Shown here: in pieces, positions 4,118-64,000 of the stretch
Layout of the letters: each line of letters starts with the position of its first letter
Numbering within the stretch: the first letter of the stretch is position 1
Origin: Octopus sinensis
Lineage: Eukaryota
DNA: 64,000 nucleotides
Direction: 5' to 3'
Assembly (NCBI RefSeq): GCF_006345805.1
Contig: NC_042998.1
Coordinates: 193,006,001-193,070,000 of the forward strand
The notes under the pieces: model-generated
What the model saw: only the letters and a program-made list of their open reading frames with translations
Database searches by the model: none
Told to the model about the DNA's origin: nothing
Position numbers and translations under genes: made by a program

Positions 4118-5323
4118 ATGGACAGCATTATCGGATCAGTTGGTCGGTTAGGCAAAGTAAAAGTACGAAATGATGATGACTTGATTGACCGAATGAATCA
4201 CCTGTATACTACGGGAATTTTAATAATATTTACAGTAGTGGTCAGTGCAAGACAGTATGTTGGTGATCCAATCCGATGTTGGTGCCCAGCCCAGTTTACA
4301 TCAGCGCATGTTGAGTATACCAATAATGTGTGCTGGATTTCAAACACTTATTATGTTGATATGCAGGATCAGATTCCGGTGGCACACAATAAACGCAAAG
4401 AAAAGGAACTAGGCTACTACCAGTGGGTCCCAGTTGTCTTATTACTGCAGGCTCTTTTATTTTATCTTCCATGCATTATATGGCGCCTGTTAAACGGACA
4501 ATCTGGGATCAACGTAGATCGCATTGTGAGTGTTGCCAGTGATGCTCAATACGAAAGTCCAGAAAACCGAACCCGTAACATAAAATATGTTGTAAGACAT
4601 ATGGACAGATGCCTGGACAACCAAAGAGAAACGCGACATTCGTGTTGTGTTAGACTGCGGCACATTCTTTCAGCAAACCTTTCTTTATTATGTGGTCGTC
4701 GTTATGGCAACTATCTTGTGGCTGTGTATTTTTTAGTAAAGATATTCTACATTGCTAATGTAATTGGCCAACTCTTCCTGTTAGACTCATTCCTTGGGTC
4801 AGGCTACCGTATTTACGGTTGGCAAGTTCTTGAGGACCTAGTTGAGGGAAACGACTGGACGGCCTCCCGTCGTTTCCCACGTGTAACATTATGTGACTTT
4901 GAGATTCGTCAGCTTCCAAATTTGAATCGCTATACCGTCCAATGCGTGCTTCCAATAAACCTTTTCAATGAGAAAATATATATATTCCTCTGGTTCTGGC
5001 TAGTCTTTGTATCCATGCTTTCTTGCTACAGTTTTGCTACATGGATTTTTCACATGATTTTTCCAACCACTCGTATACAATATGTACGGAAATTTCTCAA
5101 AATCATGGATCGAATAGGCTCAACACCAGATAAAAAGTTAGCTAATCGCTTCACGGTTGAGTACTTACGGCATGATGGTGTGTTTACATTACGGTTAATA
5201 GGTAAAAATTCTAGTGACATTGTTGTTGCTGAAATTGTTTCTGGACTCTGGGATATGTACCGAAGTAAAAAATCAATACAAATACGAAGCAATGGACATG
5301 ATACAGAAGGTGAAGATGTATAG
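4118..5323 (+). CDS. inx: Innexin (invertebrate gap-junction protein, unc-9/unc-7-like), 401 aa, single coding exon
   Basis: Uninterrupted ORF with innexin hallmarks: N-terminal DDxxDRxN, QYVGDPIRCWCP and NVCWI (EL1 cysteines), YYQWVP before TM2, FPRVTLCDF and QCVLPINLFNEKIYIFLWFW (EL2/TM4), four hydrophobic segments. The true start is ATG 4118; the track's 4070 start runs through a polypyrimidine tract. Confidence 0.97.
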   Translation: MDSIIGSVGRLGKVKVRNDDDLIDRMNHLYTTGILIIFTVVVSARQYVGDPIRCWCPAQFTSAHVEYTNNVCWISNTYYVDMQDQIPVAHNKRKEKELGYYQWVPVVLLLQALLFYLPCIIWRLLNGQSGINVDRIVSVASDAQYESPENRTRNIKYVVRHMDRCLDNQRETRHSCCVRLRHILSANLSLLCGRRYGNYLVAVYFLVKIFYIANVIGQLFLLDSFLGSGYRIYGWQVLEDLVEGNDWTASRRFPRVTLCDFEIRQLPNLNRYTVQCVLPINLFNEKIYIFLWFWLVFVSMLSCYSFATWIFHMIFPTTRIQYVRKFLKIMDRIGSTPDKKLANRFTVEYLRHDGVFTLRLIGKNSSDIVVAEIVSGLWDMYRSKKSIQIRSNGHDTEGEDV

Positions 5324-7625
5324 CAGTACTTCATAGATTAGATAAAATATCATAGGAATATATATTATACATAGGCTCATTTTTCCACTTTGAAATATAT
5401 TTGTATAATATTACATTTTTCTGTATGCAAGTGTGCGTGTGTGTAAATATTTGAAAGAATATGCATCCATAACTATCTGGAGAAGAAACCATTTACAGAA
5501 AGCATTGTGATTATAAAATGTTGACTTGAAATGAAATCAAAATGAACCTGGGAAATGAGAGAGAAAAGAATAAAAGAAAAAAAAATTGCCAAAATTTTAT
5601 GCAGTTGGAAAAAAAAAAAAAAAATCCAACATTGCCTTTAAACATTCTTCCATTGTTAATGAATTTCAAACTCTCAGGTCAGTGTGCCTCAAGGTATATT
5701 TAGTAACTGTTGTCTTTTCACATTATCATCTAAAATGATGGCTGAAACCAAGTCTGTTGGGTTAAAGGCAGTTAGAAATATTTCACATACATTCTAAAGA
5801 CATCAAATAAGGGAAAGAAAAAAAATCTCAAAATTTCAAAATAACAAAACAGAAGTAAATAAAAATTAAAAAAAAAAAACATATTAAGATAAGTCTAATT
5901 TTTTCCTCATGGGTATTTATATTCTATGAATACAAATACACAGTGTGTGTATATATGTGTGTATGCATGTGTATTTATATGTTTGTAAAAGAAAATTGGT
6001 ATACTAATTGCAATTGAAAAAAAATATTACTTTTTATTGGTTATATTTTGTGAATGTTTTCTAAGATGGTTAATTGATTAGTTGACTGATTGGCTTGACA
6101 ATAGGTTGTGTAGCTGTAATCTAAGCATTCCTTGACATCCAGGATCTCTCTTTGACTCATAAGTTGCTCTGAAATATATAAATCTCTACTTAGAATCATA
6201 GAAGAGAAACAGTGCCACAGTGTAAGCAGTATGGGTAACAGTTGCCAAAATTTAAAGTAGTTGGGGGAAAAGAAATTATTGACATTATGATAAAAAAAAC
6301 AATCTTTACAAAAAAAAAAAATTTTAAAGCATCTATGAAAGCAAAAAGAAACCCTTCAGAATCATTTTAATGTAATTTTGTTACAAATAGACATTATTTG
6401 TAATTAATTATTAATTAACTTTTGTTACATAATCAAACTGAGAATAAGTAGGTAAAGTAGAGAAATTGTTATTTTGATATAATTTGGCATCAGACAGCAA
6501 AGTAGGTATAAAGAACAGTGTGAAGTCAAAGCAATGTGATTTCTTTCATGTGGTGAACATTTAACAGAATGAAAATTTTATCTGAAGGGGTTACCACCTT
6601 CTTGAGAAATCCTTTCTGTCAATGCAGCACAATTCAACCACGACTGCAGAGAACCAGTCAGTTTACCGACAGATAGGCATATTCAAACTCAAAGAATGTC
6701 TATGATTTCTGTTAATCAAATTGGGAATTGTTAAGGGTCATCTAAAGAAGGGTTATAACCTGAAAAAAAATATTCATATTTGCATTGGAATCAGCCAACA
6801 TCTCCCAACATTAATTGTTCATCACATCAAAAAGACTAGCATTGCTTTCTCTAGCTTCGCTTCCTTCTTTATACACAAAACTATTTCGTTTTCACCCCCT
6901 GACATCTTTATAAATTGATACACTTAAAAATTAGATTCCTTTTTCTTTTGAAGTTTTACGAATTCCTAAACGAATTTTGTTGTATGGAATGACTAGATGA
7001 TTTTTCTGTTTTTTTGGGTTTTTTTTATCTACAAAAATGTTTTAACTACTTTTGTATTCTTTTCAATGTAAATCAACTTCTATATTTTTTGACTGTACCC
7101 TTACAAATCTAGCTAGACCTATTTTCTCAAACAGATATTCATGACTTAACCATAGCAGCTTCAATTATTTTCTGTCTCTCTCTCAGACAAATAAAACTGA
7201 AGTCAGCCTTAACCCAATCCTATAAAACATTAAAAGACTTGTGGTGCTCAAATACTACTCAATGTTTGTGGAGGACATCTGTATACGCATGAGTGAGTGT
7301 ATCAATGCAAGACATGAATGAATGAAAGTGTGCTTCTACAGGCCTGGTTCTTACACAGTCATTCAATTTTGTATATGATGATACTATTAACAAATTTAAG
7401 CCTTCAGTTGGTATACAACTGTAACTTTCATGGTTGTGGTATTTTTATCTATAAGGAGAGGCAACCTAACTGTTTTACAAAGAATGAAAGATTTTACGAT
7501 GTTTGTCCATTTTTCATGTATATTTGTGATTCCTTTTTTTGTTCCTTTTTATTTATTATTTTTGTTTGTTTTTTTTTTGTTTTTTCCATATGTATTATAG
7601 AAAAACATAAATCTGTCATTTCATC
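5324..7625 (+). other. Putative long 3' UTR of the innexin
   Basis: About 2.3 kb of AT-rich unique sequence without the SINEs/MITEs that fill the rest of the window; AATAAA hexamers near 5569, 5858 and 7190. The 3' end is not defined. Confidence 0.45.
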
Positions 7626-8120
7626 TATGTCTGCATGTGTGTGCAGTGATATTTCAGAACCAAATTATTTAATACATACTATGATATTTATATGATGTAA
7701 TAATTTATATATAACAAGAATGGGAGAAAAAAAGCTGTGTAAAGCAAGCATTTCAGATACTCGTGGGCTGTGCAAATGATTGGCATTTGTGACCTTGTAC
7801 ATATACATGCTGAGATAAATATAAAACTACACATACATACACACACACACATATATATATATAGAGAGAGAAAGGTGAATGTGTTTGTGGGTTTGTATGT
7901 GTTTGTAAAGGAACAAGGATATCTGTTCTATGTGATATTGCTGCCACTGTGGGATGCAGGCTGATACAAGTACATACACGTGTGTGTGTGTGTGTGTGTC
8001 TGAATTAATAATAATCTATTCTATATATTTCCACTATAAGAAAGAATCCTATATTTGAACATGAAATACAATATGAACACATAGACACAGTATATCTATC
8101 TATCTAGCTATCTTTATATA

Positions 8121-8580
8121 TATATATATATTATTCAAAGGAATTCCAACTCTGTTTTTTATATTATATTTATATTCTTAGTAATATTAATATAGAATAT
8201 ATAGTATAAATAATATAAATATAATAAAATGAAATGAAGTATTGATTGTCTTATTGAATAGATGAAATACTGAATATCAAATATTAAGGGACTAGTATAC
8301 TTTCTTGCATTTAAGCAGTCTTTAAGGTCCCAGGTTGTGACAGGAATATTTCAACTAACTGTAACAACCTGGGACCTTGAAGACTGCCTAAATGCAAGAA
8401 AGTATGCTAGTCCCTTAATATTTGATATTCAATAAGACAATCAATACTTCATTTCATTTTACTATATATACTATTTATAGCGGACGTTAAACGATGATGA
8501 TGATGATTCTATATTCAACATTAATATTATAAAGAATATAAAAAACAGACAGAGTTGGAATTCTTTTGAATAATATATAT
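8121..8580. mobile_element. Long fold-back PLE-like remnant with mirrored hammerhead-like motifs
   Basis: Arms about 8121-8343 and 8359-8580 are reverse complements (ttattcaaaggaattccaactctg ... cagagttggaattcttttgaataa); flanked by (TA)n. Confidence 0.75.
8371..8414 (+). ncRNA. Degenerate minimal type-I hammerhead-like motif
   Basis: GGGAC-CUUGAAGA-CUGC..GCAA-GAAA-GUAUGC-U-A-GUCCC: helix I GGGAC/GUCCC; the mirror copy has perfect palindromic stem III AGUAUACU; core has one extra nucleotide. Confidence 0.5.
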
Positions 8581-8621
8581 CCCTCTATACACTATCATAC
8601 AAACCCCTTTTTATTAATATG

Positions 8622-8672
<51 letters not shown>

Positions 8673-9197
8673 GTGTGTGTGTGAGAGTGAGAGTGAGAGA
8701 CTGCATGTTGAAAAAAATTTTTTTAATTGTACATGCATGTTTCTTTATATGTTTATACCAATGGCCTAGTATTTGCAAGATATAATAAAATCTCATGACT
8801 AAGAGACTGGTCTTTTGTTGCATGTTGCTAGTTTATTGAATAATGCTGCCTATTTCTTCTTTTTTTCCAGTGCAAATATCTCTTATGGACCACACAGCAA
8901 AAAAAAAAAAAAAAGAAAAAAAAGATACATGTAAATTCTTTAGTTGATCTCATTTATACACAATTTAAATCAAATGTAAATATATATGAGAGGAATTATG
9001 CTACCTATGTCGAAATTATCTTCATTTACAATTTACACGTATTAGATCTCTGCATTGGTGCTATTTCTTTAGTAAGTGATAATAAATATACTTGTACAAT
9101 ATATCAATCAAAGTTCATGGTATACACTACAGAACTGACACACGTCACACACATATACATACACACATATGTACATATATATGTATACATGTACATA

Positions 9198-9248
<51 letters not shown>

Positions 9249-10363
9249 TATATATAGGTGTGTGTGTGTATGTGTATATATATGTATATATCTGTCTATA
9301 TATGTATATATATGTGTATATATCTGTCTATATATGTATATATATGTGTATATATATCTTTGTATATATGATATATATATATATGTATACATATATATAT
9401 GTATACATATATATATGTATACATATATATATGTATACATATATGTATACATATATATATCTATATATATATATGCGTGTGTGTGTGTGTATGTATACAT
9501 ATATATATGTGTATGTATACATATCTATATATGTGTATGTATATCTCCGAACACTGCTTGGTCGAATTAATTAATAATTAATTCTATCCTTTTTTATTGA
9601 CAATATCTATATATATATATATTATATATATATATATGTGTGTGTGTGTGTATGTGTATGTATACATATCTATATCTGTATGTATGTATACATATATATA
9701 TGTATGTATGCATGTATACATATATATATGTATGTATGCATGTATACATATATATGCATGCATGTGTGTGTATATATATATATATATATATGCATGCATG
9801 TGTGTGTATATATATATATATATGCATACATATGTATGTATATGTACATATATATTTCGTTTTGTTGTGTCTTGGGAGAGTCATTATTCCACGGTAGCAT
9901 GAAATATGTATATCTGTGGTTAAGGAACTCACTTTGCATCCATGCTTTCAAGTTCTGTCTCACTACATAGCATCTTAGGGAATCGTTCACTATTATATTC
10001 TCAGGCTGTGCAATACCTTGTGAGTGAATTTGGTAGATGGTTACACTATAGAAATCCTTGTGTGTGTGTGTGTGTGTGCGTGTGTATCATCCTCATCATC
10101 ATCACTTAACATCCATTTCCCATTCTGGCATGGATTGGATGCTGATGCTTAGATATATGAGAGTGTTCCTGTGTTTGTGCCCACCATTGCTTGACTACCA
10201 GTGTTGGTATGTTTATGTCCCCATAACATGGAGTCTTGACAACAAAGACTAATACAGGAAGTACCAGATTTCAAAAAATGAGAATCACTGGAGTTTGGTT
10301 TATTTGACTAATGTACATGGGGCTCTAAACATAACAGTCACAAATTTACATCTATTTATACAC

Positions 10364-10395
<32 letters not shown>

Positions 10396-10398
<3 letters not shown>

Positions 10399-11125
10399 TC
10401 ATCATCATCATCTGGATGCCCTTCCTAATGTCAACCACTCCGTGAGTGTAGTGGGTGCTTTTTACGTGCCACCGGCACAGGGGCCAGGGGAGGCTGGCAG
10501 TGGCCACAATGGGTTGGTGCTTTTTATGTGCCACCGGCACAGGTATGACAACTACAATTTCCATTTGATATTTATTTTGATGTTGATGTACTTGACTCAA
10601 TAGGTCTCCTCAAGCACAGCAGGTCACGTGCCACCGGCACAGAAGCCAGTCAAGGCGGCACTGGCATAGGCCACGCCACCTCGACTGGCTTCTGTGCCGG
10701 TAATCTCTATCAAAGAACTGGAATCATGAGAGACTATATGTTGATACATCTTGAAGATTAGGACTTTACATCACATCATCATCATCATCGTTTAACATCC
10801 ACTTTCCATGCTAGCATGGGTTGGACGATTTGACTGAGGGCTGGCGAACCAGATGGCTGCACCAGGCTTCAATCTTGATCTGGTAGAGTTTCTACAGCTG
10901 GATGCCCTTCCTAACGCCAACCACTCCGAGAGTGTAGTGGGTGCTTTTATGTGCCACTGGCATGGGGCCAGTCAGGCGGTACTGGCAACGACCTCGCTCG
11001 AATTTTTTTACACATGCCACCAGCACAGGTGCCAGTAAGGCGATGTTGGTAACAATCATGCTCAAATGGTGCCCTTTTACATGCCACTGGCACGAAGGCC
11101 AGGTAGCCACTCTGGCAACGATCAC
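10396..11125 (-). mobile_element. Two adjacent family-D retroposon copies (10396-10700, 10775-11125)
   Basis: (CAT)n then ggatgcccttcctaacgccaaccactccg... = reverse complement of 2211-2635. Confidence 0.75.
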
Positions 11126-11818
11126 GCTTGCAAAAATAGATCAGTTGCGGAATGTTCATAATTGTTTTGATATATGCTGGTATTCTCCAGCATAGTTATA
11201 AGAGGTTAAGGCAGGTCATCATAAGTAGACTTCAAAGCTGGATGAAAAGAAGGAGGATGATATGCAGGTAGTCCCTTACAGCTCTTTCAAGAATAGATGC
11301 ACAGTTGGTGCAATTCTCTACAAGCAGTCTGCAGCTAGCATGTTAATGGTGACCTATTCCATCTTCCTTTTTCTTGTCCAGTTTTAGATTCTACTTATGA
11401 TGACCTTCTTCAAAGTACTAACTATTTAGAATCAATAATAGGGACTTACCTCTTGTACCACAACCATTAGGAGCATTCCTCAACTGAATGTTTTTTCGTC
11501 TTGTGATTTTAACTGCTGTAACATCTATTTCTACCCTCAAGTTGTATCCATGTATAAATATAAAATTATTTAACAATTAAGGATAACTTCTTAATAAGGA
11601 ATCTTAACAAGAAATTATCAGGTAGATAGCGTGAAAAACCTCATAAGAGAAAAATTTCGAAAATAATTCTTTCTTATTGAACATATTAATTTATATATAG
11701 AGGGCATTATTATACATACATGCCACACGCTAAGAGGGACATTAGTCATTTCTACCAAAAATTTTACTAATTCTACCCAATGCAATTTTTCAAAGCAAGA
11801 CATTTAAAAAATGAATTT

Positions 11819-11867
11819 AGTCTTGTATCACCTGTGATTTCGTACTTACGTACTCATCAGCAAGACT
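11819..11867 (-). ncRNA. Canonical minimal type-I hammerhead ribozyme
   Basis: Minus strand reads AGUCUUG-CUGAUGA-GUAC-GUAA-GUAC-GAAA-UCAC-AG-GUGA-U-A-CAAGACU: perfect 7-bp helix I, intact core, 4-bp helix II with GNRA loop, helix III, AUA cleavage triplet. Confidence 0.85.
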
Positions 11868-12176
11868 GGTTCTGAACGCATCATAATAAACGACCTGTCT
11901 CGTCGAAGCCAAACAGCTAACTATATAAACAATCAAATTTGATGTGATAACAGTTGTTTGCTTGTCCATACCTTTATTCAATTAGGTATATATATAAGCC
12001 ATGCTAGCATGGAAAGCGGACATTAAATGATGATGATGATATATATATATTGATAAAAACGGTAAGACAACAAAAGAAAGAAATAGACCTCGATATTATG
12101 TAACTAGAGGAATTTATCTGTAAATGTAATTTGTGACCGAATAATTGTCACATAATACATTTACAGATATATATAT

Positions 12177-12206
<30 letters not shown>

Positions 12207-12207
<1 letters not shown>

Positions 12208-12532
12208 GATAGCCGTCCACTCGTGACCGAGGAGGACCATTGCCGACCTTCAGGAACATTGTGCGCTCTAGGACTAGCTTATATTTTGCATTTGCAGCTC
12301 CGTTGGTGGCTAATGAGCCCTGCTCTTGACAAGCACACACAACTGCAAACATTGCAGACCAAGCTTTCCCCATTCACTATACGAGCCGTGCGCTTTCGCG
12401 CAGCTCGCTTAAGTTCTTCATGCTGGATACGTGCTCTCTCAAAAGTGTCAATCCCCTCCTTAACCTGCTACCTCCATCTGTGGCGATGACAGGCATTGTC
12501 TCCCAGTCAGTGTCCTGCATATCAAAGGCCTT
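12207..12532 (-). mobile_element. RTE-clade LINE 3' fragment
   Basis: Minus translation [14 protein letters not shown]...RLRRGL resembles an RTE ORF C-terminus (I..d.WE.lA.DR..WR); flanked by (TA)n. Confidence 0.65.
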
Positions 12533-12536
12533 TGTG

Positions 12537-12570
<34 letters not shown>

Positions 12571-12789
12571 ATATATCTGTGTATATATATATATATATAT
12601 CTGTGTATATATATATATATCTGTGTATATATATATATATATCTGTGTATATATATATATAATATATATATATATATCTGTGTGTGTATATAATATATAT
12701 ATATATATCTGTTGTATATATATATATATATATCTGTGTGTATATATATATATATATATTATATCTGTGTATATATATATATATATATC

Positions 12790-12865
<76 letters not shown>

Positions 12866-12949
12866 TATATATCGTTGGTAAATAAAAAATCTGAAAAAGA
12901 AGCACACTCTAACCAAGAACTTGTAGATTTTCTAGTGAGGCCATAGGCC

Positions 12950-13011
12950 TGGGGTCTGAAGAAATCTGTAAAGCTAAGCACTTTGTGGATGTGAATCCGA
13001 GGGTAACCCCA
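12950..13011 (+). ncRNA. Degenerate hammerhead-like motif with long helix II
   Basis: UGGGGU-CUGAAGA-(AUCUGUAAAG..CUUUGUGGAU)-gUGAA-UCCGAGGG-U-A-ACCCCA: 6-bp helix I; GAAA is imperfect. Confidence 0.5.
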
Positions 13012-13102
13012 AAGACTGACCACATCTACCTTTATCTATATATGTATGTATGTATGTATGTACACATATAATTTATGTATTCACATATGTGTGGATATGT
13101 AC

Positions 13103-13133
<31 letters not shown>

Positions 13134-13139
13134 CACACA

Positions 13140-13440
13140 TCATCATCATCATTTAGCATCCCCGTTCAACTGGGGTCTGGGAAACCAGAAGGCTGCACCA
13201 GGCCCAGTCTGATCTGGCAATGTTTCTACGATTGGATGCCCTTCCTAATGCCAACCACTCCGTGAGTGTAGTGGGTGCTTTTTATGTGCGACCAGCACAG
13301 GTGCCAGACGGGGCTGGCAAACGGCCATGGTTGGATGGTGCTTTTTATGTTCCACTGGCACGGGGGCCAGGCGAGGCTGGCAACGGCCACGATCGGATGC
13401 TGCTTTTTATGTGCCACCGGCACTGGTATCACAGCTACAA
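13140..13440 (-). mobile_element. Family-D retroposon copy
   Basis: Reverse complement of the 2211-2635 body with (CAT)n. Confidence 0.75.
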
Positions 13441-13890
13441 TTTATATATATATATATGTGATATTAGTTTGTTACACATCATATACACAGGTTAATACAC
13501 TTTCACTGTCATGGGTTATATCAGGAATATGGTATACATACAATAATTATAGTTTAACTTTTCTCCCAATTTCTCAGTGCATATACAAAATGAGGAACAG
13601 AATATTAGTTTTCAAAAGGAATACATTGCTTACCTCCAGATATTAATATGTAAAAGAGAATTCTAATTTGTACTGTTCTTCTCATTAGAGCTTTGGCTCT
13701 TCTCTCAATATCTGTCTTTATGATTCTTTTTCTCTGACTTATTATGAGTGTATAGCATTCGTTTAACTCATTGAGTGCCACCAAGCCTAGCATGTGCACT
13801 CATCCTGCACCTATCATGCTTACTCTCTATCTCTTACCCTCTATCAATAAAGCATGACTGGAGAATTAAACTACAAGCCAGCTATTATTT

Positions 13891-13923
<33 letters not shown>

Positions 13924-13994
13924 CTAACTATACACGTGCATACACACACACACACACAGACAGACAGACAGATAGATAGATAGATAGATAGATA

Positions 13995-14560
13995 TGCTCA
14001 GCACTTCCTCATGAATTGCCTGAGAAAGCTGTTGAAAATCACCTGGCAAGACTAGGTCTCAGATTCAGAGGTCCTCCTTTGAGCTGATCCGCCAAGCATT
14101 TACACACTGCTGAGGAGAGTGCAAGTCAGGTGGGATGGTCACCTTGTTCCAATGTCTGACACATGACTCCCCAAGGGACTGTTTTACAGCGAACTGGTGG
14201 GAGGTAAGTACGTGCAACATGGACAGAAAAAGTGCATTAAAGATGCACTCAAAACCTTGCTGAGAAGCTTTGAAATCAATCCCAGCACCTGGGAAACACC
14301 TATGCAAGGCTGTGCTGCTTGGCAAAGCTGCATTAAAAGAGGTGCCACCTTTTACAAACAGAACCGAATCGCAAGGACACGAGGGAAATGTGAACTGCAC
14401 AAGCACAGAGCCAACTCCTTGCCTTCGTTCCCAGCAGACCACCAATGACCAACCTGCGGCAAAATCCTTCTGAGCACACATTGGACTAGTCAGCCACAGC
14501 CCCAGACACAATATGCCCCATCTTCTCCGTTTGACATTCTTAGTCATTATCAACAACGAC
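13995..14560 (+). mobile_element. RTE (BovB-like) LINE 3' fragment, decayed
   Basis: Translations LRKLLKITWQD, PKGLFYSELVGG, QKKCIKDALK..L.SFEINPSTWE and a trailing Cys/His motif match an RTE ORF C-terminus; interrupted by stops and frameshifts. Confidence 0.8.
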
Positions 14561-28702: not shown

Positions 28703-29180
28703 TAACAGTTAGCTACATGGGTCTTCACATATTTCTCCCAAGTTATGCTACTAACAAATATTTGGTACACCATCTTCAATAACCAGCCTGCTTAAATAAT
28801 GCCAACTAATTCTGAGAGGAATCTGTAAAACCGTTACTGATTAGTTATCGATTTGTTAAAATTTGATATTTTATTGTTGACTGTTCATCTTGGCCTTTAC
28901 TACCACATCAGGCTATTTTATTCCCTGTTGGTGAACTGAACTCTGAAAAATGTGATATGTCCAGGTGTTTCTCTGTCAGTGAGCTTAAACTACTTTGGAA
29001 AAATGGAAAATATGTGTTAAAGAATATTTCAAGACCTGTTTATTACTACAACAATTTTACATTTATACTTCATGATCTTGATATAACTTAAGCAAAACCT
29101 ATTGTTACATTTCTTTAATCCACTGTTTTTTACGTTTTTATGATCTTTTTCCCCGCTCTCCCTCTTCCTCATCAGATTTG

Positions 29181-31145: not shown

Positions 31146-31372
31146 TACTGGAGTAAACACATAAATGTGAAACAAGGTGGAAAAAAAGAGTACTCAAATA
31201 CCAGTGGTAGAGTTATATGCTTTATTTAAAGCAGCAGAAAATTCAACAAAATCTTTTACTCGGAGTTTCTCGTTGCCGTTCATCAGACAGTTTTTGCTAG
31301 CTGTCTGATGAACGGCAACGAGAAACTCAGAGTAACAGATTTTGTTGAATTTTCTGCTGCTTTAAATAAAGT
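31146..31372. mobile_element. Fold-back PLE-like remnant with two mirrored hammerheads (second copy at about 32440-32665)
   Basis: Arms 31221-31290 and 31301-31371, 10-nt loop, flanked by (TA)n. Confidence 0.75.
31301..31338 (+). ncRNA. Minimal type-I hammerhead motif
   Basis: CUGU-CUGAUGA-A-CG-GCAA-CG-A-GAAA-CUC-A-GAG-U-A-ACAG: intact core, GUA triplet, palindromic helix III, weak helix II; mirror at 31253-31290 (-). Confidence 0.7.
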
Positions 31373-32290: not shown

Positions 32291-32594
32291 GTATGTATAT
32301 ACAAATTTGTTACCAGTTCAAGTATGCTTGAGGCATATTCAAATCCATAAGAAAGCCATTCATTATATTTTGTAATGGAGAAAACTTTTCACTGGAGACA
32401 AATAGGTGTAAATACACCAAGTATATATATATATATATGTACTGGAGTAAACACATAAATGTGAAACAAGGTGGAAAAAAAGAGTACTCAAATACCAGTG
32501 GTAGAGTTATATGCTTTATTTAAAGCAGCAGAAAATTCAACAAAATCTTTTACTCGGAGTTTCTCGTTGCCGTTCATCAGACAGTTTTTGCTAG

Positions 32595-32632
32595 CTGTCT
32601 GATGAACGGCAACGAGAAACTCAGAGTAACAG
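32595..32632 (+). ncRNA. Minimal hammerhead motif (duplicate of 31301-31338)
   Basis: Identical sequence inside the tandem duplication. Confidence 0.65.
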
Positions 32633-61172: not shown

Positions 61173-64000
61173 TCCTTATAATTTTTTGTGTTGAAAAAAG
61201 TCCCGTTCAGTGATTTCATGTATTATATTTAACTACAATTTCATCCATCCAAAATGAGTCCATGATGCAAAACTAAATTGCAAATTAAACAACCTGCTTT
61301 AGAAATCGGATAGTATGAAGGTAAATACGGTAATAAAAAAATGACACACTCCCGTTATTTGAGAGAGAGAATCACAGTGGTTATTCCACAGTGGTTATTC
61401 CACAATCACGTGAAATTAAAATAGTAAGCGCTGTCATTATTTTTTTATATGACGGAAATGTTCGGCACAGCTATTATTAAATTCTAAATTTGTGAATTTC
61501 CTTTGAAAGGCACAATTGCAGTGTTTTAGCTTTTGCAGGAAAAATCACAATAACCAACAAATAATGTTTACAAAGCTGGAATATGTAATGAAAAAATTCC
61601 TTCGTTGTATTCAAGACGCTCCAAATCTTTACGTGACAGCAGCCTCGCGAAGACAGCAGCGACCCTGCTTTGAGGAGGCCGAACCTAAACAACTCTAAAA
61701 ACAACAAAACAGTGGAGGAAGTATAAGTCAATCAGCACCTTATGCCAAAATACCATAATTATACGAGTCAAAGAAAGAAATGTGTGGAAAATAAAAAAAA
61801 ATATTCCTTCTTTTTTTTTCACAAGCTAAGAAGACAACTCTGGAAGGCATGTTTCTGTCTACTTACGACCTCATCAGAAAAAGTAGTCCTCAGCGTACTA
61901 AGTGAAATGAAGTAGGGATGAGAAAATCACTAAGTAAACATACATTAATTTGTGTAAAAACTAGATTTTTGTACAGAATAAAACCCAGAGACGCCATCCA
62001 TATGATAAAAAAGAAGTTAAGTTAGTACTAGCATATTTAATCCAGGGGAGATTAAAAATAGCCGTGGGTAGCTTTCAACTTTTTCTATCCCTGGATATTT
62101 TTTATCTCTATACTTACACGCTACTATTTACAGCTTCTTATTTCGAGATCCGCTGTTCCAAAACAACTATTATTTCACGTTCTCTCAAAGTTTATAAATC
62201 CTTATGCCAAGCACGCGCGTGTTTGTGTGTGTGTGTGTGTGTGTGCGTGCGTGCGTATCTGTGTAAGTATCCATTTTGGAACTCCTGCTGCTGCAAGATC
62301 GGAATCGAGAGACAACAACACCAACAAGGGAAACACTGTGTAGTAGCTCTACATGCGAGAAATAGCAGCCAAATATTCCTGAACTCATACGCTATTAAAA
62401 AAAAAAGCTGTATGGTCACGACAGCAACGCCTTTGCTCAAATCTGACCTGAGGCTAAACACCAATGTGATAATAGACAGGCGGGTGATAAGCTCTAAACT
62501 GGTCCGTGGTGAGTTCAAAATAGACCATTGGTTAAATTTGTGTGATTAGGGAACTTTAAAATAATACAACTCGGAAAATCTATAAACCGCTCTCTTTCAT
62601 TCTAACAGCTTACATTCGTCTTGTTCTTAGAAACAGATACAGGAACAGTACAAGAAAATTGTTCTATTTTGGCCATTGCCAACAAGAAGAAAATATTGCT
62701 TGCATCTAAATTGGTATCTTGCTGAAAATAGGAAAGCCAGCTTTGTATAACACAAAACGATATCGGAAGAGTTTGATGAGCAGAATAAAAAGTAATTTTT
62801 CAGAAATATTTATTAGCAGCTTCGACATATAAAGGGTTCTTTAGCGAAAGGAAATCACAGAGTTGAGGAAAGAGAAATTCCTTTTTATTTACTGAGTTTT
62901 TGAAGATGTTTTTGAATATTTATCTTTTAAAACGAAAAAAAAATAATAATAATTTTGATTCCCTCCCGCTCTCTTCAATATACTGTCTGTATTTTTACTT
63001 GATCAGTTTGTCTTCTCAAGCTATATAAATAGTCCAAGAATCCATATATCGAGAGAGACAAGTAAGCAAACAGAAACACACGCACACTACGTGAACATAC
63101 ATGCAGTTTCACTTAGTGAGCGTGCAATCATACACACATACAGATATGTATATGCAGATGTGTGCATGTCCGTATGCATGCATGCATGCACAGTTCTTAT
63201 GTAATTCTGCTATTCTTATGTCACCGAGTTTACCTCGTGTTGTTCAATCACTTCTGTTTTACTGGGATCGGCCTAAGATGTCTGCTTGAAATTGAAAAAG
63301 AATTCCAAGATATTTGGAGACTAGACAGAAGATTTGAAATCATTTGTTGAGTTTGAAGGGATGCTAAAGATTATGACTTTTTCGGTATGCTATAAATATT
63401 TCTCAGGCATTATGCAAAACGAAAGCGAAAATGTATTTCGCTTTGCTATAGAAATTACTGCTTTGAATTTTCTTGTTCGTATGACTCAACAGAAAGACGC
63501 TTTTTGCCAGCATTTCTTGTCATTTAATCTACACACCTACTCATGCCATCTCACTAAGATTTATTTTTAAAGATTTATTTAATGCTTGCATCATTAACTG
63601 TTATAATGCCTATACTGAATAGTTATTACTAACGTAGGAAAATTCCGAAGAGAAAATAATCCTATTGTCTATTTCCTAGCTGTTAACAAATAATTCAAAT
63701 TCTTAAAAATAATTACTGAAATTTCATGTTTATAATAAACTCCTCACAATTCTTTCTCGCTTGTGCTTGTTTGTTTTACAGAGAAAAATAATCCTCTTTC
63801 CACAAATAACAGTAAGATTTGATGGAGTAACTCGTGACGGCATTAAACTTAGAATTGTATTACGTATGTTTCTTTAAATATTTATTTCGCATCTCTTTAT
63901 GCCCTGAGCCACAAGTTTCGAAAACATAAGCATCAGTAATGCACTAAAATTGATTCAGCAAATTTTTTTCACCTACCCTGCGAATGATGATGCGTCTAAT

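What the first reader, a model, noticed from the sequence alone, without database searches (positions are those of the whole stretch)
11819..11867. Essentially perfect minimal hammerhead ribozyme on the minus strand
AGUCUUG CUGAUGA GUAC-GUAA-GUAC GAAA UCAC-AG-GUGA U A CAAGACU. All conserved core bases are present, G10.1:C11.1 closes helix II, the loop is a GNRA tetraloop, helix I is a perfect 7 bp, and helix III is quasi-palindromic with a 2-nt loop (suggesting dimeric folding). Predicted cleavage after AUA, between about 11826 and 11825. It has no mirror arm to sequester it, so it is the best candidate for an active ribozyme. It lies 6.5 kb downstream of and antisense to the innexin, so it would cut any antisense transcript heading toward that gene (inference).
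Basis: partly seen in the sequence, partly recalled or inferred. Interest (0 to 1): 0.75.

Follow-up and report, generated by a model that had tools for sequence, protein, structure and literature searches.

The report
Lone retrozyme copy beside an innexin
The motif is a real hammerhead-ribozyme shape, but it is one truncated, recently inserted copy of a jumping repeat with thousands of relatives in this genome and likely does nothing for the nearby innexin gene; the family as a whole shows paired base changes that likely mark the loop contact that speeds self-cutting.

Summary
The hammerhead is real (11819-11867, minus strand; only descriptor hit in the window, 0 in 200 shuffles). It sits in a 361-nt, 5'-truncated single copy (11562-11922) of a 460-480-nt non-coding repeat that elsewhere forms tandem and two-armed arrays in (TA)n: a non-LTR retrozyme. 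Its exact core has 25 genomic copies; a looser family pattern has 4,498. One diverged DNA data set has the empty site, so the insertion is young. Contigs from two likely-RNA runs show 13 A>G changes on the plus strand in a flanking hairpin, so the locus is likely read sense to the innexin, with the ribozyme antisense; nothing supports cutting of an antisense transcript. Folding predicts the double-hammerhead in tandem copies (helix III p about 0.7) but not in this solo copy (p about 0.04), so it is a poor candidate for activity. It is not 'minimal': helices I and II are canonical, and position 1.7 covaries with the last base of loop II (A-U, U-A, G-U, G-C), not with helix I. The scan has already reported several retrozyme families in this genome on other DNA.

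The parts
11819..11867 (-). Type I hammerhead motif: helix I 6 bp plus U1.7, helix II 4 bp with GUAA loop, quasi-palindromic helix III; predicted cut between 11826 and 11825
   Evidence: covariation
11562..11922 (-). 5'-truncated single unit (unit positions about 102-479) of a 460-480-nt non-coding retrozyme; ends at the family's commoner 3' end; inserted in a short AT tract
   Evidence: empty site in run X7
11819..11846 (-). Inferred tertiary contact between U1.7 (11819) and the last A of loop II (11846)
   Evidence: 20 of 20 subfamily representatives can pair at these columns, against 13 of 20 for 2.7-1.7; genome counts; known contact in PMC2632901
11204..11412 (+). Long hairpin in an old repeat remnant next to the insertion, with A>G changes on the plus strand in likely-RNA contigs; marks the strand transcribed
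   Evidence: (z -5.9)
4118..5323 (+). Innexin coding frame (context only; no functional link found)

Best explanation
This is a type I hammerhead motif carried by one 5'-truncated, recently inserted copy of a multi-copy non-coding repeat, likely a non-LTR retrozyme spread by a Penelope-type enzyme, and this single copy is likely inert. Shown: the repeat, its arrays, its (TA)n targets, its fixed 3' ends, the empty site, and covariation of the ribozyme. Inferred: tandem arrays are transcribed; neighbouring hammerheads fold as a double hammerhead and cut out a unit of about 465 nt; the unit is circularised and reverse-transcribed into (TA)n by a Penelope-like RT/GIY-YIG protein; aborted copying left this 361-nt monomer. 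With one cut site it cannot release a unit, it lacks a cis partner for helix III, and it lies antisense in the plus-strand RNA seen at the locus.
For: Window 11550-11922 matches the best-scoring other loci at 96-98%. Exact 23-nt core: 25 copies, reversed control 0. A 25-nt body motif has 1,352 hits and the loose hammerhead pattern 4,498, control 0. Of 57 merged sites, 35 are two-armed inverted; 81 of 91 outer 3' ends fall in two zones; 80 of 91 have an AT run of 8 nt or more within 25 nt. No long reading frame belongs to the unit in the 45 loci screened. A cut-to-cut 465-nt unit folded as a circle gives z -6.1, 0 of 60 shuffles as low. Five of 6 helix I pairs and 3 of 4 helix II pairs change on both sides across 20 representatives, and the core is invariant except N7. 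A contig of run X7 (depth 60, 75 letters on the short side) joins the flanks without the element. Double-hammerhead helix III p 0.64-0.72 in a tandem copy against 0.02-0.04 in this copy. 13 A>G sites, 12 in the hairpin arms, none with a 5' G, in runs X11/X15, absent from 4 of 4 DNA-type runs.
Against: No cleavage, circular RNA or transcription of this copy was shown. Contigs cannot show strand or ends directly, the RNA label of X11/X15 is a guess, both runs come from one study, and no DNA run of the same individuals was available. The mobilising element was not identified: a profile of 16 units found nothing (best E 1.1) in 29 loci of one Penelope-like family, and the GIY-YIG match of that family is weak (E 0.033). 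Folding programs ignore tertiary contacts, and invertebrate retrozyme hammerheads do cut as monomers (PMC7229834), so this copy could still cut if transcribed on the minus strand. Its target AT run is unusually short (4 nt).
Confidence: 0.85

Rival explanations
1. The repeat is the pseudo-LTR of an autonomous Penelope-like element, and the copies seen are truncated ends of it.
For: Partial tandems, an inverted 5'-truncated arm and a (TA)n bias are Penelope hallmarks (PMC8557442 passages). Some PLEs carry canonical or palindromic-helix-III hammerheads (PMC4209133).
Against: None of the 57 merged sites shows the unit running into a shared upstream frame; outer ends meet (TA)n or another arm. One array has at least 10 full units in a row. 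No homology to 29 PLE loci of one family. The geometry is not that of PLE min-HHRs.
Confidence: 0.08
2. The copy has been domesticated as a regulator that cuts antisense RNA running toward the innexin.
For: Intact core, G10.1-C11.1 kept, minus-strand orientation 6.5 kb downstream of the gene.
Against: 95-99% identical to 14 dispersed siblings, so intactness reflects youth. Absent at the same site in run X7. The unique flank shows only plus-strand-type A>G changes in X11/X15, with no T>C cluster. The monomer fold is poorly populated.
Confidence: 0.04
3. The copy is an active monomeric ribozyme whenever minus-strand read-through occurs, without benefit to the host.
For: A monomer can form 3 pairs plus a CAGG loop in helix III (-10.2 kcal/mol, 2 kcal above the minimum), keeps U1.7 and the loop-II A, and mussel and coral retrozymes cut as monomers.
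Against: That fold is 0.75% of the ensemble; no minus-strand RNA was seen. This reading is compatible with the best explanation except for 'inert'.
Confidence: 0.3
4. Chance match to the hammerhead consensus.
For: Below Rfam's gathering score; the 49-mer folds only at z -1.8, and its minimum fold is not the hammerhead.
Against: 0 strict hits in 200 shuffles; thousands of relatives with covarying helices.
Confidence: 0.01

Closest known systems
Metazoan non-LTR retrozymes (Cervera and de la Pena 2020, PMC7229834; passages and section 14 read. Li, Clavereau and Pollet 2026, 10.64898/2026.07.22.740005; first fifth and passages read)
   Same: Non-coding, AT-rich (34% GC) tandem units each with a type I hammerhead; strongly self-paired as a circle; solo monomers described as offspring that cannot transpose.
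   Different: Unit of 460-480 nt is slightly above the 150-450 bp given; frequent two-armed insertions in (TA)n with two fixed 3' ends; circular RNA not shown here.
Canonical type I hammerhead with the U1.7 / loop-2 3' A contact (Dufour et al. 2009, PMC2632901, passages; O'Rourke et al. 2015 only as cited in PMC11875169, passages)
   Same: Helix I 6 bp, helix II 4 bp, GNRA loop ending in A, U at 1.7; long-loop sister subfamilies have an internal loop II, as the CChMVd (-) hammerhead does.
   Different: In this family the two positions also occur naturally as U-A (536 copies), G-C and G-U. Dufour et al. report the U-A swap only as an engineered double mutant with partial rescue.
Minimal hammerheads of Penelope-like elements (Cervera and de la Pena 2014, PMC4209133; parts 1-2 of 4 read)
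   Same: Type I, palindromic helix III region, dimer folding, shared insertion footprint.
   Different: min-HHRs have helix II of 7-8 bp, helix I of 4-5 bp, an extra base before helix II and little or no helix III, and lie in pLTRs of coding elements; none of these holds here.

Membership tests
Type I hammerhead ribozyme | Conserved core CUGANGA, GAAA, NUH around three helices, open at helix I | tested here: met
Type I hammerhead ribozyme | Covariation of helices among relatives | tested here: met
   helix I 5 of 6 pairs, helix II 3 of 4 pairs with double changes; helix III invariant and so uninformative
Type I hammerhead ribozyme | Rfam RF00163 gathering score | tested here: not met
   18.6 of 34 bits, E 0.027
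Type I hammerhead ribozyme | Site-specific self-cleavage | not testable with these tools
   needs in vitro assay
Canonical (full) type I hammerhead | Helix I 6 bp, helix II 4 bp, contact between U1.7 and the 3' base of loop II | tested here: met
   the contact is inferred from covariation that rests on two or three independent events
PLE minimal hammerhead (min-HHR) | Helix II 7-8 bp, helix I 4-5 bp, extra base before helix II, helix III absent or tiny | tested here: not met
   against the definition
Non-LTR retrozyme | Tandem units of a few hundred bp, each with a type I hammerhead | tested here: met
   family level; the window copy itself is a partial monomer
Non-LTR retrozyme | No protein coded, low GC | tested here: met
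   45 loci; GC 0.34
Non-LTR retrozyme | Expressed as linear and circular unit RNAs | tested here: inconclusive
   likely-RNA contigs hold family sequence and run across the unit-to-unit junction (X13, X15); contigs cannot tell circles from tandem transcripts or DNA
Non-LTR retrozyme | Mobility | tested here: met
   dispersed young copies and an empty site in run X7
Penelope-like element (autonomous) | RT plus GIY-YIG frame between pLTRs | tested here: not met
   no such frame joined to the unit at 57 sites; no homology to 29 loci of one PLE family

The most novel reading that the evidence does not exclude
This retrozyme superfamily (about 4,500 hammerheads in one genome) is a natural mutagenesis library of the hammerhead's accelerating loop contact. 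The pair usually drawn as a fixed reverse-Hoogsteen U1.7-A has switched to A1.7-U and, through a G-U intermediate, to C1.7-G in subfamilies that went on to spread, which would mean the contact here tolerates or uses Watson-Crick-edge geometry. The same family also switched once between a long internal loop II and a GNRA tetraloop while keeping the contact base, with this window's subfamily at that boundary.
Probability: 0.45. Interest if true: 0.55.

Novelty: new member of a known kind. Interest (0 to 1): 0.3.

Why it matters
For the locus: little. It is a young parasite insertion, and a reminder that an intact ribozyme near a gene is not evidence of regulation. For ribozyme biology: the family offers ready-made natural variants (A-U, U-A, G-U, G-C at the loop II-1.7 contact; G-C, A-U, U-U and A-C at 10.1-11.1; 1- or 2-nt centre of helix III; short or long loop II) that have passed selection for spread, so the geometry of the contact and the monomer-versus-dimer question can be tested directly.

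Tried and rejected
Rfam at gathering level and on 1.6 kb gave no hammerhead. First idea that the short loop II arose by a 13-nt deletion private to this subfamily: a tree of 34 rows from three subfamilies supported it (35 of 91 copies dropped for truncated flanks, one row kept per site; an earlier try, kept only 12 rows and no long-loop sister). Wider sampling showed other abundant short-loop subfamilies; one branch (98/94) separates short from long loops, and the root is unsure, so the direction is left open. An 18-nt match between the unit and a PLE endonuclease region (E 0.14) vanished with a profile search and tblastn: chance. No RNA holder was on record as RNA. No likely-RNA contig covered 11875-11990: no evidence either way. 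Target-site duplication could not be read in the AT tract. The inverted-repeat scan of 5300-14000 returned only microsatellite pairs among the 25 longest. Paper searches: 'octopus' plus 'hammerhead ribozyme' listed 4 papers, none by title on octopus retrozymes; searches for natural covariation of the 1.7 contact listed none by title or abstract. Only the CC-licensed library was searched, and supplements (for example the alignments of PMC4209133, PMC7229834 and PMC3088659) were not opened and may hold such variants. Earlier scan notes: no match by sequence or place.

Full report
Observation. The sequence is present as described at 11819-11867 on the minus strand. A type I hammerhead descriptor finds this one site in 64 kb, with 0 strict and 1 loose hit in 200 shuffles. 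Rfam Hammerhead_1 aligns to it at 18.6 bits, below the gathering score. The predicted cut lies between 11826 and 11825. The gene 6.5 kb upstream is an innexin. No call identified the organism; earlier AI notes call the genome octopus.

What surrounds it. Window 11550-11922 matches the best other loci at 96-98% (40 of 2,250 candidates scored). The exact core occurs 25 times. A sister form with 13 extra bases in loop II gave 64 rows, one of them a short-form duplication. The full unit is 460-480 nt; the window holds positions about 102-479 and no other piece of the family. A body motif has 1,352 exact hits, and a loose pattern for this hammerhead lineage 4,498 against 0 for the reversed control; that pattern also catches at least one unrelated repeat (L121). 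The 105 loci merge into 57 sites: 35 two-armed inverted, 21 one-armed, 1 mixed. Of 91 outer 3' ends, 39 lie at unit 341-365 and 42 at 465-479, and 80 have an AT run of 8 nt or more beside them. These are the tandem-inverted, (TA)n-biased insertions described for Penelope-like elements (PMC8557442 passages). No long frame belongs to the unit (45 loci). A cut-to-cut unit folds strongly as a circle (z -6.1). This fits non-LTR retrozymes (PMC7229834; 10.64898/2026.07.22.740005).

Age. In DNA-type run X7 one contig (572 letters, depth 60) joins 11515 to 11922 with 21 letters between; by my reading these match 11542-11562 with two differences, so the element is missing there, together with a 26-nt flank deletion. 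That contig differs from the window at 17 of 313 flank letters, so it is a diverged lineage. Runs X1, X2 and X4 have contigs that enter the element by only 21-26 letters from the left flank, under the tool's 31-letter rule: a hint that they carry it. The copy is 95.2-99.4% identical to 14 siblings.

The ribozyme is canonical, not minimal. Cervera and de la Pena 2014 define canonical metazoan type I motifs by helix I of 6 bp and helix II of 4 bp with loop contacts, and min-HHRs by helix II of 7-8 bp and helix I of 4-5 bp. On 20 hand-picked subfamily representatives, 5 of 6 helix I pairs and 3 of 4 helix II pairs change on both sides. Copies are not independent: this rests on one U-A swap and one A-U to G-U to G-C path. 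The contact itself is known: a reverse-Hoogsteen pair of U1.7 with the 3' A of loop 2, with partial rescue by an engineered swap (PMC2632901 passages; PMC11875169 passages). I found no report of the natural swaps in three searches, without opening supplements.

Monomer or dimer. A 2-nt loop III cannot close. The monomer fold (-10.2 kcal/mol) is 0.75% of the ensemble, and helix III has p 0.02-0.04 in the 361-nt copy; two molecules fold best as the double hammerhead (-32.4 kcal/mol). In a natural tandem (L007) the double-hammerhead helix III has p 0.64-0.72 and the monomer form 0.0. C15.5 and G16.5, which pair only in the dimer, are invariant in 20 of 20. These are energy models without tertiary terms; invertebrate retrozyme monomers do cut in vitro, so activity of the solo copy stays open (about 0.3).

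Strand transcribed. In likely-RNA runs X11 and X15 (one study), contigs over the single-copy flank 11150-11541 carry 10 and 12 listed differences, all A>G on the plus strand. Of the 13 sites, 12 lie in the arms of a hairpin (12 of 33 arm A's against 1 of 78 elsewhere), none has a 5' G, and none is seen in 4 of 4 DNA-type runs. The hairpin folds at z -5.9, and other copies of this old repeat are only 70-90% alike, so the contigs come from this locus. This is the pattern of A-to-I editing (established knowledge) and implies plus-strand RNA, in which the hammerhead is antisense. Whether that RNA is the innexin 3' UTR is not shown.

Mechanism. Shown: repeat, arrays, targets, empty site, covariation. 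Inferred: arrays are transcribed, adjacent hammerheads cut as dimers, unit RNAs circularise, and a Penelope-type enzyme copies them into (TA)n. A Penelope-like family with frames up to 784 aa that also ends at (TA)n is in the genome (GIY-YIG E 0.033), but it shares no sequence with the unit, so the partner is unidentified. The window copy is an aborted monomer.

Verdict. Observation confirmed, interpretation partly supported. New member of a known kind; the scan has reported several retrozyme families in this genome, and one with units of about 483 nt may be related, though sequence look-ups found no match. Interest 0.3, mostly for the covarying loop contact.

Noticed in passing
window 11204-11412 (+): Long hairpin (z -5.9) in an old repeat remnant with clustered A>G changes in likely-RNA contigs; implies plus-strand transcription about 6 kb past the innexin stop, perhaps a long 3' UTR.
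   Followed up: partly
window 31266-31325 and 32560-32619: Two inverted pairs of a different hammerhead-like motif (very short helix II, CUC-A-GAG helix III) in a duplicated segment; the same motif and flank occur in Penelope-like loci L136, L138 and L140.
   Followed up: partly
G000 subfamilies, e.g. L102, L106, L108, L120: Abundant subfamilies replace G10.1-C11.1 with U-U, A-U or A-C, and have a 1-nt centre in helix III that forces a dimer or a triloop.
   Followed up: partly
L121 (G000:C1:34282000-34283200): An unrelated repeat with the same helix III, U1.7 and loop-II 3' A; no BLAST match to this unit.
   Followed up: no
L016 / G000:C1:112632662-112634380: Array in which two of four hammerheads lack the 3' strand of helix III and the cleavage site through a shared deletion.
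   Followed up: no
L015 2506-3024 and L107 after 700: Penelope-like coding fragments inserted close to retrozyme copies at TA-rich sites; a young family with 784-aa frames exists.
   Followed up: partly
window 61852-61877 (-) and 29148-29175 (-): CUGAUGA...GAAA matches without the helices of a hammerhead; they fail the descriptor.
   Followed up: yes
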